A stretch of DNA of 64,000 nucleotides from positions 111,986 to 175,985 of the forward strand of contig CAWHHP010000004.1 of assembly GCA_963829345.1 (NCBI GenBank), given 5' to 3'. The notes below the pieces were generated by a model. The model searched no databases. It saw nothing but the letters and a program-made list of their open reading frames with translations, and had not been told where the DNA came from. This DNA comes from an uncultured Chitinophagaceae bacterium (GTDB lineage: Bacteria; Bacteroidota; Bacteroidia; Chitinophagales; Chitinophagaceae). Position numbers and translations under genes: made by a program. How positions within the stretch are numbered: position 1 is the stretch's first letter; the number at the start of each line of letters is the position of its first letter. Of the stretch, positions 4,554 through 6,252 are shown piece after piece.

Positions 4554-5114
4554 ATGGAGCAAAAACCTATATATTCAATAGGTCATGGAAATAGAAAAGC
4601 CAAAGATTTTTTGGATCTTTTATTAAAATTTGAAATTACATATCTCATTGATGTAAGGTCCCAGCCGTATTCAAAATTCAATCCTCAATTCAATCAAAAT
4701 GATTTAAAGTTTTTACTTGAGAGGAATAATATTAAGTACGTCTTTATGGGTGACGCTTTGGGTGGAAGGCCACTCGATCCTACTTGTTATGATGAAAATG
4801 GAAAAGTGGATTACGATAAAGTAAAAACGAAGGACTTTTTTAAAATTGGAATTGATCGGTTAAAGAAAGCCTACGAAAAGAAAATTCCAATAGTAGTGAT
4901 GTGTAGTGAAAGTAAACCGTGCGAATGCCATAGAAGCAAATTGATAGGTCGAGTTCTTTCAAAAGATGAAATTAATTTAAGGCATATTGATGAAAAAGGA
5001 AAAGTCAAGAGCCAGGCTGATGTGATTAATGAGTTAAATAAAGGTTTGTCTGATACAACATTATTTCCCGATGAAGTAACTATAAATTCTACATCCAGAA
5101 AATCCTATCCATAA
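4554..5114 (+). CDS. DUF488 family protein (copy 1)
   Basis: Start ATG 4554 (MEQKPIYSIGHGNR). Motifs YSIGH, LIDVRSQPYS, LGGRP and MCSESKPCECHR (C-x-E-x5-CHR). Confidence 0.88.
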   Translation: MEQKPIYSIGHGNRKAKDFLDLLLKFEITYLIDVRSQPYSKFNPQFNQNDLKFLLERNNIKYVFMGDALGGRPLDPTCYDENGKVDYDKVKTKDFFKIGIDRLKKAYEKKIPIVVMCSESKPCECHRSKLIGRVLSKDEINLRHIDEKGKVKSQADVINELNKGLSDTTLFPDEVTINSTSRKSYP

Positions 5115-5115
5115 A

Positions 5116-5595
5116 ATGCAATTTTTTACTGTTGGTGTATATAATTCAACCGCCGAAGATTTTTTTAATAAGCTTGTTAAGAACGATATTGATACATTCT
5201 GTGATATCAGACAAAGGAGAGCCGTAAGAGGGTCTAAATATTCTTTTGTAAATAGTACTAGGTTGCAGAATAAATTAAAAGAATTAGGAATAAAGTATAA
5301 ACACATCTTAGCGTTAGCTCCTACCTCAGAAATTCGTGAATTACAAAAAAAAACTGATTTACAGAAAAAGCAACTTAAAAGTGAAAGGAAGGAGTTGGGG
5401 GAAGTATTTATTAGCGAATACAAAGAAAGAATTATCAATAAATTTGATTTCGTTTATTTTCTGAAAGAGCTTAAAGATTTGGGTGCTAATAAAATTGTGC
5501 TGTTTTGTGTAGAGGAACAACCGGCAGCTTGCCATAGATCTTTAGTGACGAATGTATTAAAAGAGCGCTTCGATTATAACATAATTCACTTATAA
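5116..5595 (+). CDS. DUF488 family protein (copy 2, divergent paralogue)
   Basis: Motifs FFTVG, FCDIR and LFCVEEQPAACHRSLV (same C-x-E-x5-CHR). Starts 1 nt after the copy 1 stop. Confidence 0.85.
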   Translation: MQFFTVGVYNSTAEDFFNKLVKNDIDTFCDIRQRRAVRGSKYSFVNSTRLQNKLKELGIKYKHILALAPTSEIRELQKKTDLQKKQLKSERKELGEVFISEYKERIINKFDFVYFLKELKDLGANKIVLFCVEEQPAACHRSLVTNVLKERFDYNIIHL

Positions 5596-6252
5596 ATGGA
5601 AGTTCTTATAGTCTCAAAAACTCATATGCATACAGCGGCTTGCGTAGGAGGCCTTGTGTTACAAAATCAACGATCTGTTCGATTACTCAATCACGGGGGA
5701 AGTAATCAACCAGCCGATAGTGACTTTGAAGTAGGAGATATATGGGATATTAATTTTGTGAATAGAAATCCGGTTCATCCACCTCATGTTGAAGATGTGA
5801 TAATTACTAATAAAACATATTTGCGGGAAATTGACGATATAAATGAGTTCCTTACGGAAAATGATTTGGTGAATTGGAATGGCCATATTGATGAAGTATT
5901 CGATGGGCTTCTACATTGGACAAACAGCGGATCAGGATATATTCCTGAACATGGCCAACTTCCCGAAAGGAGTACGGGATTTTGGATTTCAAACCGAAAT
6001 TTGGAAAGAGCAACTTTTGATGATAAAGTGCGTTATCGCTTCCCTAACGGTCGAAATTTTAGGGGTATAGCGTATGTAGGATATCAAGATACCGCTGAAG
6101 AAATTTTAGCCGGTACGATATTGAGATTATCCTTGTCGAGAATTTATCAGCCAAATAACCCACAAATCACTGCGCCACCAGGCTATTACTTACAATTATC
6201 GGGATGGTATGATATTGCAAGAGACCATAACGAAGATGATTTCCCTTTTTAA
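5596..6252 (+). CDS. Dual-OB-domain-like protein
   Basis: N-terminus LIVSKTHM...ACVGGL...RSVRL, HPPHVED, and C-terminal ILRLSLSR...YLQLSG resemble dual-OB proteins that accompany DUF488. Abuts the upstream stop with no gap. Confidence 0.6.
   Translation: MEVLIVSKTHMHTAACVGGLVLQNQRSVRLLNHGGSNQPADSDFEVGDIWDINFVNRNPVHPPHVEDVIITNKTYLREIDDINEFLTENDLVNWNGHIDEVFDGLLHWTNSGSGYIPEHGQLPERSTGFWISNRNLERATFDDKVRYRFPNGRNFRGIAYVGYQDTAEEILAGTILRLSLSRIYQPNNPQITAPPGYYLQLSGWYDIARDHNEDDFPF

What the first reader, a model, noticed from the sequence alone, without database searches (positions are those of the whole stretch)
4554..6252. Tightly coupled DUF488-DUF488-dual-OB operon without a visible DarT/DarG partner
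Seen: gaps of 1 and 0 nt. Both DUF488 paralogues keep C-x-E-x5-CHR yet are otherwise very different, which suggests two distinct activities or a heterodimer. As I recall, DUF488 belongs to the rhodanese/Cys-phosphatase superfamily and often occurs with dual-OB proteins and DNA ADP-ribosylation (DarTG) genes. No DarT or macro-domain gene is present here; a GHKL-nuclease follows 66 nt later. Inference: a nucleic-acid end-processing or modification-reversal module used in phage conflict, possibly working with that nuclease.
Basis: partly seen in the sequence, partly recalled or inferred. Interest (0 to 1): 0.65.

Follow-up and report, generated by a model that had tools for sequence, protein, structure and literature searches.

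The report
Untested DUF488-DUF488-DuOB defence candidate cassette
Three tightly packed genes (two phosphatase-like DUF488 enzymes and a double-OB DNA-binding protein) form a mobile cassette already catalogued as an untested anti-phage candidate. The copy here is a diverged subtype whose DNA binder ends in the same tail peptide as the cell's single-strand DNA-binding proteins.

Summary
Genes at 4554-5114, 5116-5595 and 5596-6252 are separated by 1 and 0 nt. The first two are DUF488 paralogues, 26% identical, and both keep C-x-E-x5-C-H-R. The third is a DuOB protein whose AlphaFold model is a tandem OB fold most like HIN-200 DNA sensors.

The triplet is a self-contained cassette. 53 of 58 related loci from at least seven phyla keep the same gene order. 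No other gene recurs in more than 7 loci, and the three genes co-evolve. The GHKL gene downstream recurs in only 1 of 58 loci. DarT is absent from this genome and never lies next to the cassette.

The cassette corresponds to PADLOC candidate PDC-M45 (Payne et al. 2024), which is untested. The DuOB subfamily here escapes all PADLOC M45A models. Close relatives sit inside a BREX operon and beside HsdR.

New leads:
- The DuOB ends in EDDFPF, an SSB-type C-terminal tip. 69 of 120 close homologues carry it, and only SSB-like proteins share it in this genome.
- In other lineages DuOB is fused to RecQ, a RecD-like helicase or HRDC.

Most likely this is a DNA-directed end- or adduct-processing module used in phage defence. 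Its function is unproven.

The parts
4554..5114 (+). Gene A: A-type DUF488 enzyme (186 aa), PDC-M45B-like
   Evidence: Pfam PF04343 E 1.4e-20. PADLOC PDC-M45B E 2.6e-53. AF2 pLDDT 87.8 with Cys-phosphatase-like fold hits. 1902 homologues, the top ones 70-80% identical.
4902..4934 (+). Predicted active-site loop of A: C117-x-E119-x5-C125-H126-R127
   Evidence: All five residues are invariant in 37 orthologues. In the model the loop lies between strand 113-117 and helix 126-136, as the P-loop does in Cys phosphatases. A catalytic role is inferred.
5055..5066 (+). Conserved short motif (TTLF here; xDLFG or QLSLF in relatives) in a disordered loop of A
   Evidence: L170 is conserved in at least 90% of sequences and F171 is invariant. 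pLDDT is below 50 for residues 165-177. In Chloroflexota, Actinomycetota and Pseudomonadota the motif reads GQL[SGH]LFG, like the beta-clamp-binding consensus QL[SD]LF. Its function is speculative.
5116..5595 (+). Gene B: DUF488-N3a-type enzyme (159 aa), PDC-M45C-like
   Evidence: Pfam PF04343 E 4.9e-15. DUF488-N3a scores 26.5 bits against a cut-off of 27, and 36 of 37 orthologues match N3a at E<0.01. PADLOC PDC-M45C E 2.8e-16.
5506..5538 (+). Predicted active-site loop of B: C131-x-E133-x5-C139-H140-R141
   Evidence: Invariant in 37 orthologues.
5596..6252 (+). Gene C: DuOB tandem-OB protein (218 aa) of a diverged subfamily
   Evidence: Pfam PF22557 E 3.6e-21. AF2 pLDDT 92.4, all-beta, two barrels. 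Foldseek hits HIN-200 domains at E 2e-4, prob 1.0, TM 0.35-0.40, then Teb1 AB. No PADLOC M45A hit. 925 representative clusters.
6232..6249 (+). SSB-type C-terminal tip EDDFPF of the DuOB protein
   Evidence: 69 of 120 close homologues end in [DE][DE]x?[LIF]P[FY], 63 of them in DDLPF, after a 19-24 aa variable linker. pLDDT is below 50 for residues 210-216. In this genome only 3 of 4701 ORFs of at least 100 aa end this way: an SSB paralogue, a DUF3127 protein and this DuOB.

Best explanation
The three genes are one self-contained, horizontally mobile cassette of the DUF488/DUF488-N3a/DuOB kind (PADLOC candidate PDC-M45), in a diverged DuOB subfamily.

Proposed mechanism:
1. The DuOB protein, a tandem OB fold arranged like HIN-200 DNA sensors, binds DNA. 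The likely substrates are single-stranded stretches or junctions exposed by helicases.
2. In this subfamily DuOB carries an SSB-type acidic tip (EDDFPF). The tip would plug it into the host's SSB-partner network, for example RecQ. Other lineages achieve the same link by fusing DuOB directly to RecQ, a RecD-like helicase or HRDC.
3. DuOB positions a pair of Cys-dependent, phosphatase-fold DUF488 enzymes (A-type plus N3a-type). Both have an intact C-x-E-x5-C-H-R loop.
4. These enzymes carry out two phosphate-centred steps on a DNA end or on a phosphate-linked adduct: hydrolysis or transfer of a terminal phosphate or a phosphodiester-linked group.
5. The most likely biological use is anti-phage defence, by damaging or un-protecting invading or replicating phage DNA.

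Shown: gene anatomy, conservation as a unit, folds, invariant motifs, tail motif, helicase fusions, and embedding of close relatives in BREX and Type I RM operons.

Inferred: DNA binding, complex formation, chemistry, target and phenotype.

My confidence that it is a member of this cassette family is about 0.9. My confidence in DNA-end or adduct processing used for defence is about 0.4-0.5.
For: - Architecture: the A->B->C order is kept in 53 of 58 loci from Bacteroidota, Chloroflexota, Actinomycetota, Acidobacteriota, Pseudomonadota, Cloacimonadota, Aminicenantes and Halanaerobiales.
- Very distant DuOB clades (17-20% identity) keep the same order.
- No other gene family occurs in more than 7 loci.
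- Pairwise identities of A, B and C correlate (r 0.61-0.76; 0 of 500 permutations reach this).
- PADLOC: A hits PDC-M45B at 2.6e-53 and B hits PDC-M45C at 2.8e-16. The M45A models are DuOB models, since a canonical cassette in a same-family genome hits all three.
- PDCs are candidates found by embedding in BREX, DISARM and RM-I systems (Payne et al., bioRxiv 10.1101/2024.01.29.577857).
- Within the window's own clade, the triplet in L010 lies between PglX (1.4e-272) and PglZ (8.1e-155), and in L014 it follows HsdR (3.2e-132).
- Folds. Invariant Cys/His/Arg loops.
- DuOB fusions to full-length RecQ, HRDC, and an SF1 RecD/PIF1-like helicase with TBP-TOTE.
- SSB-type tip and its specificity.
- Sporadic distribution: 5 of 201 genomes of the same family.
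- In the window the cassette sits in a low-GC stretch next to other conflict-type genes.
- The only DUF488 phenotype found in the literature is DNA-fragment related: an E. coli yeaO deletion takes CRISPR spacers almost only from an IS4 transposase gene (bioRxiv 10.1101/2024.05.24.595836).
Against: - No experiment exists for any member of this cassette.
- Most immediate neighbours across the loci are ordinary metabolic or regulatory genes, not defence genes, so defence-island enrichment is not demonstrated here.
- The active-site loop is C-x9-R with an extra Cys, not the canonical C-x5-R. Fold matches are modest (TM 0.42-0.50) and also include methyltransferases and SRP GTPases.
- The SSB-type tip occurs in only about a third of species-level loci (about 17 of 55), so it is an accessory feature and not the core mechanism.
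- DNA rather than RNA as the target is inferred only from the helicase and HRDC fusions and the HIN-like fold.
- No coordinates were available to test whether the conserved DuOB residues (R29, H64, E66, D67, W130, R177) form a binding groove or a catalytic site.
Confidence: 0.55

Rival explanations
1. The cassette is an accessory DNA-repair or replication-fork maintenance module, not an immune system. DuOB acts as an SSB-like platform at gaps or stalled forks. The DUF488 pair cleans blocked DNA termini (3'-phosphate or adducts) so that host repair enzymes such as RecQ can proceed.
For: - The SSB-type tip is shared in this genome only with SSB-like proteins.
- DuOB is fused to RecQ and HRDC in other lineages.
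- A carries a beta-clamp-motif-like QLSLF loop.
- Most neighbours are housekeeping genes.
- The cassette is essentially absent from phage and plasmid records.
Against: - Distribution is sporadic (5 of 201 genomes in the family) with cross-phylum transfer, which is unusual for core repair.
- Close relatives are embedded inside BREX and beside HsdR.
- One fusion carries the TBP-TOTE conflict-system domain.
- Here the cassette lies in a low-GC islet with other conflict-type genes.
Confidence: 0.25
2. The target is RNA or a nucleotide or NAD-derived metabolite rather than DNA. Examples are tRNA or RNA end healing, or hydrolysis of ADP-ribose-phosphate or cyclic-phosphate species. DuOB would then be an RNA binder or sensor.
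For: - OB folds also bind RNA. Weak Foldseek hits include RNase II and class II tRNA synthetase anticodon-binding domains.
- The Cys-phosphatase-fold hits include the RNA 5'-phosphatase Mce1.
- From memory, Burroughs & Aravind 2023 propose sugar, NAD-derivative and RNA-terminus chemistry for this clade.
Against: - The fusion partners are DNA helicases and HRDC.
- The tip is that of DNA-replication SSBs.
- The best structural matches are DNA-binding HIN domains and Teb1.
Confidence: 0.1
3. This is the first reader's extended version: the triplet works with the downstream GHKL-nuclease gene (6319-8166) as a four-gene system.
For: - The gap is only 66 nt and no terminator-like hairpin lies between C and the GHKL gene.
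- A homologue of the GHKL protein also lies 419 bp from the triplet in Sphingomonas pseudosanguinis (L058).
Against: - The GHKL homologue is present in only 1 of 58 loci, and there it is on the opposite strand.
- The cassette is conserved without it in every phylum.
- Adjacent placement is expected in defence islands.
Confidence: 0.05
4. The cassette is an orphan antidote or reversal module for DNA ADP-ribosylation (DarT-type), separated from its toxin.
For: No tool result supports it.
Against: - DarT is absent from this genome and from 13 of 16 cassette-bearing genomes.
- Where DarT is present, it lies on other contigs.
- No macro-domain gene lies next to the cassette, and no recurrent neighbour exists.
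Confidence: 0.05

Closest known systems
PADLOC phage-defence candidate PDC-M45 (three-family cassette CAS_00153; Payne, Hughes, Fineran & Jackson, bioRxiv 10.1101/2024.01.29.577857)
   Same: The composition is the same: a DuOB protein (M45A), an A-type DUF488 (M45B) and an N3a-type DUF488 (M45C). A canonical copy in a genome of the same family (L006) has the same gene order and hits all three models. The window's A and B hit M45B and M45C. Close relatives are embedded in BREX or Type I RM operons, which is the criterion that defined PDCs.
   Different: The window's DuOB subfamily matches none of the four M45A models, so PADLOC v2.0.0 is unlikely to call this locus. The subfamily has its own motifs (PPH-x-EDV and others), and many members have an SSB-type tip. 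PDC-M45 itself has never been tested.
DUF488 / DUF488-N3a / DuOB conflict-system neighbourhoods of the RapZ-C-DUF488-DUF4326 clade (Burroughs & Aravind 2023, NAR Genom Bioinform 5:lqad029). Cited from memory and from the Pfam family names; the paper was not held.
   Same: The domain families are the same: PF04343, PF22751 and PF22557. The predicted theme is the same: Cys-dependent rhodanese/phosphatase-superfamily enzymes doing DNA-end processing in virus-host conflict.
   Different: That work is a prediction only. I could not check whether it describes the SSB-type tip, the helicase fusions or this DuOB subfamily.
PADLOC candidate PDC-M19 (a DUF488-containing protein plus a partner)
   Same: A and B both match the C-terminal half of the PDC-M19A models (E 1.9e-14 and 2.8e-19).
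   Different: The M19A model has about 294 positions, with an extra N-terminal half. It is a different architecture, and I did not examine its partner.
HIN-200 domains (AIM2, IFI16, p202, MNDA) and RPA-like tandem OBs (Teb1 AB)
   Same: The tandem-OB architecture is shared. These are the best structural matches of the DuOB model (prob 1.0, E 2e-4), and they are DNA sensors or binders.
   Different: There is no sequence relationship (8-12% identity). TM-scores are only 0.35-0.40, so the two barrels are oriented differently. This is an analogy in function, not membership.
Bacterial SSB (PF00436) C-terminal tip, e.g. E. coli SSB ...DDDIPF. Its role as a hub for RecQ, ExoI, PriA and others is established knowledge, cited from memory.
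   Same: Both have an OB-fold body, a variable disordered linker and a terminal acidic-[LIF]-P-F motif. An SSB paralogue in this genome ends in EDDLPF.
   Different: DuOB does not match the SSB Pfam model. It has two OBs in one chain, and only part of the family carries the tip.
Cysteine phosphatases of the PTP/DSP type (KAP, PRL-1, VH1, MKP5, Mce1 RNA 5'-phosphatase)
   Same: The Rossmannoid fold is shared, with a Cys at the end of a strand and an Arg at the start of the next helix.
   Different: The loop is C-x-E-x5-C-H-R (C-x9-R) rather than C-x5-R. Structural similarity is moderate (TM 0.42-0.50) and there is no sequence match to any PDB chain.

Membership tests
Pfam DUF488 (PF04343) | Profile match above the gathering score (22.2 bits) | tested here: met
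   A scores 74.5 bits and B scores 56.7 bits.
Pfam DUF488-N3a (PF22751, active N3 subclade) | Profile match above the gathering score (27 bits) with the catalytic Cys retained | tested here: inconclusive
   B scores 26.5 bits, just under the cut-off. However, 36 of 37 orthologues match at E<0.01, and the B-type genes of L006 and L007 score 35.7 and 43.1 bits. C131, C139, H140 and R141 are invariant.
Pfam DuOB (PF22557) | Full-length profile match above 27 bits and a tandem OB fold | tested here: met
   76.6 bits over model positions 1-210. The AF2 model shows two beta-barrels at pLDDT 92.4, and Foldseek hits tandem-OB HIN and Teb1.
PADLOC PDC-M45 | M45B (A-type DUF488) present | tested here: met
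   PDLC04657 E 2.6e-53, model positions 1-171 of 204.
PADLOC PDC-M45 | M45C (N3a-type DUF488) present | tested here: met
   PDLC04658 E 2.8e-16.
PADLOC PDC-M45 | M45A (DuOB) model match | tested here: not met
   The window's DuOB and four clade members have no M45A hit at E<=0.1. Canonical DuOBs do hit (L006 1.2e-35, L007 1.6e-10). Homology to M45A proteins is shown only through the shared Pfam DuOB model.
PADLOC PDC-M45 | Three genes adjacent and co-oriented | tested here: met
   Gaps of 1 and 0 nt. The order is the same as in the canonical L006 cassette.
PADLOC PDC-M45 | Anti-phage activity | not testable with these tools
   It is a candidate only. It is not among the systems validated in Payne et al..
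Cys-phosphatase / rhodanese superfamily | Rossmannoid fold with a nucleophilic Cys after a strand and an Arg at the helix N-terminus | tested here: met
   The model has strand 113-117, then the loop, then helix 126-136. Foldseek hits KAP, PRL-1, VH1, MKP5 and Mce1 at prob 0.96-1.0 and TM 0.42-0.50.
Cys-phosphatase / rhodanese superfamily | Canonical C-x5-R P-loop | tested here: not met
   The loop is C-x-E-x5-C-H-R, that is C-x9-R with a second Cys.
DarTG | DarT (PF14487) toxin gene adjacent | tested here: not met
   There are 0 DarT hits in the own genome. It is present in 3 of 16 cassette-bearing genomes, always elsewhere.
DarTG | Macro-domain (DarG) gene adjacent | tested here: not met
   The only macro-domain gene of the genome lies on contig C3, while the window is on C4.
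SSB (PF00436) | SSB OB-domain profile match | tested here: not met
   The Pfam scan of C gave only DuOB.
SSB (PF00436) | Acidic C-terminal tip ending in P-F after a disordered linker | tested here: met
   The window protein ends in EDDFPF, and 69 of 120 homologues carry such a tip. It is one of only 3 such ORF ends in the genome.

The most novel reading that the evidence does not exclude
In this DuOB subfamily the tandem-OB protein is an SSB mimic. Its DDLPF-type tip (EDDFPF here) recruits the host's SSB-partner enzymes, above all a RecQ-type helicase. Other lineages hard-wire the same link by fusing DuOB to RecQ, RecD-like helicases or HRDC. A conserved QLSLF-like loop on the A-type DUF488 may additionally dock on the beta-clamp. 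The cassette would then be a replisome- or ssDNA-gap-targeted machine in which two Cys-phosphatase-fold enzymes chemically edit DNA termini or adducts on replicating (phage) DNA. That would be a defence logic not yet described experimentally.
Probability: 0.25. Interest if true: 0.7.

Novelty: new member of a known kind. Interest (0 to 1): 0.4.

Why it matters
No member of the DUF488 family, one of the larger domains of unknown function in prokaryotes, has a demonstrated biochemical activity. The DUF488-DUF488-DuOB cassette is the context that most constrains what that activity could be.

This locus adds three things:
- A large DuOB subfamily (925 representative clusters) escapes the current PADLOC models, so the candidate system is under-counted.
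- Close relatives of this copy are embedded in BREX and Type I restriction operons, which strengthens the defence reading for this subfamily.
- The SSB-type tail and the RecQ, RecD-like and HRDC fusions give concrete, cheap experiments: tail-peptide binding, helicase dependence and DNA-end assays. These could finally assign a function to DUF488.

If the defence reading fails, the same evidence points to a new accessory DNA-repair module.

Tried and rejected
- Burroughs & Aravind 2023 could not be read by DOI or PMC id, so its content is cited from memory only.
- Literature searches on 'DuOB', 'dual OB' and 'PDC-M45' returned only unrelated words. The DUF488 searches found no functional study except the yeaO note.
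- A genome search with one M45A model (PDLC04656) found nothing in 15 genomes. This was later explained: M45A has four models, and direct hmmscan shows they hit canonical DuOBs but not this subfamily.
- Sequence searches of A, B and the DuOB profile against PDB chains found nothing.
- Synteny with a same-genus genome was uninformative. Only nhaD is shared around the site, at 68% identity, so the island borders could not be set.
- The sigma-70 promoter and terminator scan, and folding of the C-to-GHKL spacer, gave nothing decisive. Bacteroidota promoters are not covered by the scan.
- A scan of the host proteome for C-terminal QLxLF-type clamp motifs gave only three unannotated hits and does not settle the clamp-motif idea.
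- The neighbour survey by Pfam and PADLOC gives tallies, not per-gene tables, so I could not compute a defence-enrichment statistic.
- Considered and rejected: a four-gene system with the GHKL nuclease, and a DarTG-linked module (see the rival explanations).
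Full report
**Observation**

The ORF list and the raw sequence show three co-oriented genes. Gene A runs 4554-5114 (186 aa) and ends TAA at 5112-5114. One base follows, then gene B starts with ATG at 5116 and runs to 5595 (159 aa). Gene C starts with ATG at 5596 directly after B's stop and runs to 6252 (218 aa). The next gene starts at 6319.

Pfam assigns A and B to DUF488 (E 1.4e-20 and 4.9e-15) and C to the dual-OB family DuOB (PF22557, E 3.6e-21). A and B are only 26% identical.

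**The triplet is a unit**

A DuOB alignment was used to scan one genome per species. It returned 58 loci from Bacteroidota, Chloroflexota, Actinomycetota, Acidobacteriota, Alpha-, Beta- and Gammaproteobacteria, Cloacimonadota, Aminicenantes and Halanaerobiales.

I called ORFs in these loci and searched them with the window's proteins.
- 53 of 58 loci have A-type DUF488, B-type DUF488 and DuOB in the same order on one strand, mostly with gaps of -4 to +9 nt.
- One further locus (L049) has all three genes with the A-B pair inverted.
- The remaining exceptions sit at contig ends or are disrupted.

Each DUF488 gene in each locus is clearly either A-type or B-type, so these are two old orthologous lineages and not recent duplicates. 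In 37-sequence alignments the Cys/Glu/Cys-His-Arg loop is invariant in both lineages.

All-against-all clustering of the flanking ORFs found no other family in more than 7 loci. The recurring families are histidine kinases, ABC ATPases and response regulators, which are generic large families. Pairwise identities of A, B and C between loci are correlated (r = 0.76, 0.66 and 0.61; 0 of 500 label permutations reach the observed value). The three genes therefore travel and diverge together.

Two very distant DuOB genes in genomes of the window's own family (17-20% identical to gene C) sit in the same DUF488-DUF488-DuOB arrangement.

The cassette is sporadic, occurring in 5 of 201 genomes of the family. 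By matching contig length and coordinates of G007 and L046, that family includes Terrimonas rubra, so it is Chitinophagaceae.

**What is not part of it**

- A homologue of the downstream GHKL protein occurs near the triplet in only one other locus (Sphingomonas pseudosanguinis, L058), on the opposite strand.
- The NA37 and membrane genes further downstream never recur.
- DarT (PF14487) has no match in the window's genome. It is present in only 3 of 16 cassette-bearing genomes, each time on another contig.
- The genome's only macro-domain gene is on another contig.

The 'missing DarT/DarG partner' is therefore not missing. This cassette does not have one. No terminator-like hairpin separates C from the GHKL gene, so read-through transcription in this genome cannot be excluded. 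Comparative evidence nevertheless says the two are independent modules placed side by side.

**Relation to catalogued systems**

PADLOC models hit A as PDC-M45B (E 2.6e-53) and B as PDC-M45C (E 2.8e-16). They gave nothing for C. Earlier notes of this scan pointed to Payne et al. (bioRxiv 10.1101/2024.01.29.577857), which I checked.
- PDC-M45 is a three-family cassette, CAS_00153.
- It is not among the systems validated there.

Scanning the canonical-type cassette of a same-family genome (L006) showed that its DuOB hits PDC-M45A (1.2e-35) and its two DUF488s hit M45B and M45C (3.9e-55 and 5.6e-60). DuOBs of the window's clade (the window, L011, L044, L050, L058) hit no M45A model.

The window therefore carries a PDC-M45-type cassette whose DuOB belongs to a diverged subfamily that PADLOC v2.0.0 does not recognise. 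That subfamily is large: 528 hits in the 90%-clustered database and 925 representative clusters at 50% identity.

B-type proteins are Pfam's DUF488-N3a. 36 of 37 orthologues match, and the window's copy scores 26.5 bits against a cut-off of 27. The Pfam names DuOB and DUF488-N3a/N3i come, as far as I remember, from Burroughs & Aravind 2023, who predicted DNA-end processing in conflict systems. I could not read that paper.

**Conflict context**

Within the window's own clade, the triplet of a Ferruginibacter MAG (L010, DuOB 67% identical) lies between PglX (E 1.4e-272) and PglZ (E 8.1e-155) of a BREX operon. In a Flavobacterium MAG (L014) it directly follows a Type I HsdR (E 3.2e-132).

Other immediate neighbours include mads, AriA-like, WYL and Bro-N proteins. 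Most, however, are ordinary metabolic or regulatory genes.

In the window the cassette sits in a low-GC stretch (0.27-0.34 against 0.35-0.39 in the flanks).

The cassette is essentially cellular. It has no match in 50,697 phage records, one distant match among 72,556 plasmids, and one of 2.9 million viral contigs, which carries the whole triplet.

**Structures**

The DuOB model is confident (pLDDT 92.4, pTM 0.87) and consists of two beta-barrels. Its best PDB matches are HIN-200 domains of AIM2, IFI16, p202 and MNDA, which are tandem-OB DNA binders (Foldseek prob 1.0, E 2e-4, TM 0.35-0.40). Teb1 AB follows.

The A model (pLDDT 87.8) is a Rossmannoid domain. Its best matches are tetrapyrrole and borosin-type methyltransferases and Cys phosphatases (KAP, PRL-1, VH1, MKP5, Mce1), with prob 0.96-1.0 and TM 0.42-0.50. 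Generic SRP-GTPase hits also appear. This agrees with a place in the rhodanese/phosphatase superfamily. The loop is C-x9-R with a second Cys, not C-x5-R. No PDB chain is related by sequence to A, B or C.

**New leads on mechanism**

(i) The window's DuOB ends in EDDFPF.
- Among the 120 closest homologues, 69 end in [DE][DE]x?[LIF]P[FY], and 63 of those read DDLPF. The motif follows a variable, low-complexity linker of 19-24 residues. The rest stop right after the last strand.
- This is the architecture of the bacterial SSB C-terminal tip. The E. coli SSB tip is DDDIPF and serves as a hub for RecQ, ExoI, PriA and others (established knowledge, from memory).
- In the window's genome only 3 of 4701 ORFs of at least 100 aa end this way: an SSB paralogue (…EDDLPF), a DUF3127 protein and this DuOB. 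The main SSB ends in …ERLPF.
- At species level the tip is present in about 17 of 55 loci, essentially the Bacteroidota-type branch. It is an accessory feature.

(ii) In Caldilineaceae the DuOB is the N-terminal domain of a full-length RecQ helicase with DEAD, Helicase_C, RecQ_Zn_bind, RQC, HRDC and HTH_40 domains (L052; also L051 and L057, which keep A and B upstream). In the representative library further DuOBs are fused to RecQ, to HRDC alone, to an SF1 RecD/PIF1-like helicase with a TBP-TOTE conflict domain, and to Hsp70-like ATPases. This also explains why some sources name stand-alone DuOBs 'RecQ'. Together, (i) and (ii) argue that DuOB works on DNA alongside a helicase, either fused to it or recruited by the tip.

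(iii) A-type DUF488s have a disordered loop (pLDDT below 50) with an invariant Phe. The loop reads GQL[SGH]LFG outside Bacteroidota, xDLFG in most Bacteroidota, and TTLF here. It resembles the beta-clamp-binding consensus QL[SD]LF. It could equally be an intra-complex contact, so I rate the clamp reading low.

(iv) The only phenotype I found for any DUF488 protein is indirect. An E. coli yeaO deletion acquires CRISPR spacers almost only from an IS4 transposase gene (bioRxiv 10.1101/2024.05.24.595836). This is compatible with a role in handling DNA fragments or ends.

**Mechanism proposed**

DuOB binds DNA exposed or unwound by a helicase and brings in a heteromeric pair of Cys-dependent DUF488 enzymes. 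These perform two phosphate-centred reactions on a DNA terminus or on a phosphate-linked adduct. The most probable use is defence against phage DNA.

Anatomy, conservation, folds, motifs, fusions and embedding are shown. DNA binding, complex formation, chemistry, target and phenotype are inferred.

The main rival is an accessory repair or fork-maintenance module. It is supported by the SSB, RecQ and clamp-type features and by the many housekeeping neighbours.

**Verdict**

The supposed partners (GHKL nuclease, DarTG) are not partners, and the module is already catalogued as untested.

What is new here is modest but useful. This is a large DuOB subfamily that current defence-finders miss, and its SSB-type tail and helicase fusions make the function testable.

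Noticed in passing
window 6319-8166; L058:9026-10924 (-): The GHKL ATPase gene next to the cassette has a homologue 419 bp from the DuOB cassette of Sphingomonas pseudosanguinis. That homologue carries HATPase_c_3 plus an HSDR_N-like nuclease region. Two co-occurrences in distant phyla may reflect shared defence islands rather than a functional link.
   Followed up: partly
L019:6631-7985: In a Limnohabitans MAG two extra genes sit between the B-type DUF488 and DuOB. One is a small P-loop kinase-like protein (weak AAA_18/SKI matches) and the other is a Prim-Pol domain protein (E 1.5e-5). This may be an expanded variant of the cassette.
   Followed up: partly
L057:7000-7828; L054:6557-8003: The cassette is interrupted in some Chloroflexota. 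In L057 a pair that looks like a nucleotidyltransferase/HEPN toxin-antitoxin lies between B and the DuOB-RecQ gene. In L054 opposite-strand ORFs that look like a transposase split B from DuOB. These assignments are by eye and were not scanned.
   Followed up: no
own genome contig C3 (129-aa ORF, minus strand): A DUF3127 protein (PF11325, E 5.5e-17) ends in DDLPF, like an SSB paralogue and the DuOB. DUF3127 may be another SSB-tip-bearing OB-type protein of Bacteroidota.
   Followed up: partly
window 4540-4550 and 6283-6293: The 11-mer GCTTAATTTGC occurs just upstream of both gene A and the GHKL gene. It contains TAATTTG, which is close to the Bacteroidota -7 promoter box TAnnTTTG (from memory). 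One repeat of this length in AT-rich DNA is roughly what chance would give.
   Followed up: no
P0023, P0025, P0027 and others: Several stand-alone DuOB proteins are named 'ATP-dependent DNA helicase RecQ' by one source. This is probably annotation transferred from the DuOB-RecQ fusion proteins.
   Followed up: partly
P0276, P0318: DuOB is fused to Hsp70-like ATPase domains in proteins of 829-1014 aa. The role of this fusion is unknown.
   Followed up: no
window 3211-3939 (-) and 4004-4411 (-): Two divergently oriented genes upstream of the cassette have no convincing family match. The best are weak hits to TraB-like (E 0.0011) and DUF7309 (E 0.012). They lie in the same low-GC stretch.
   Followed up: no
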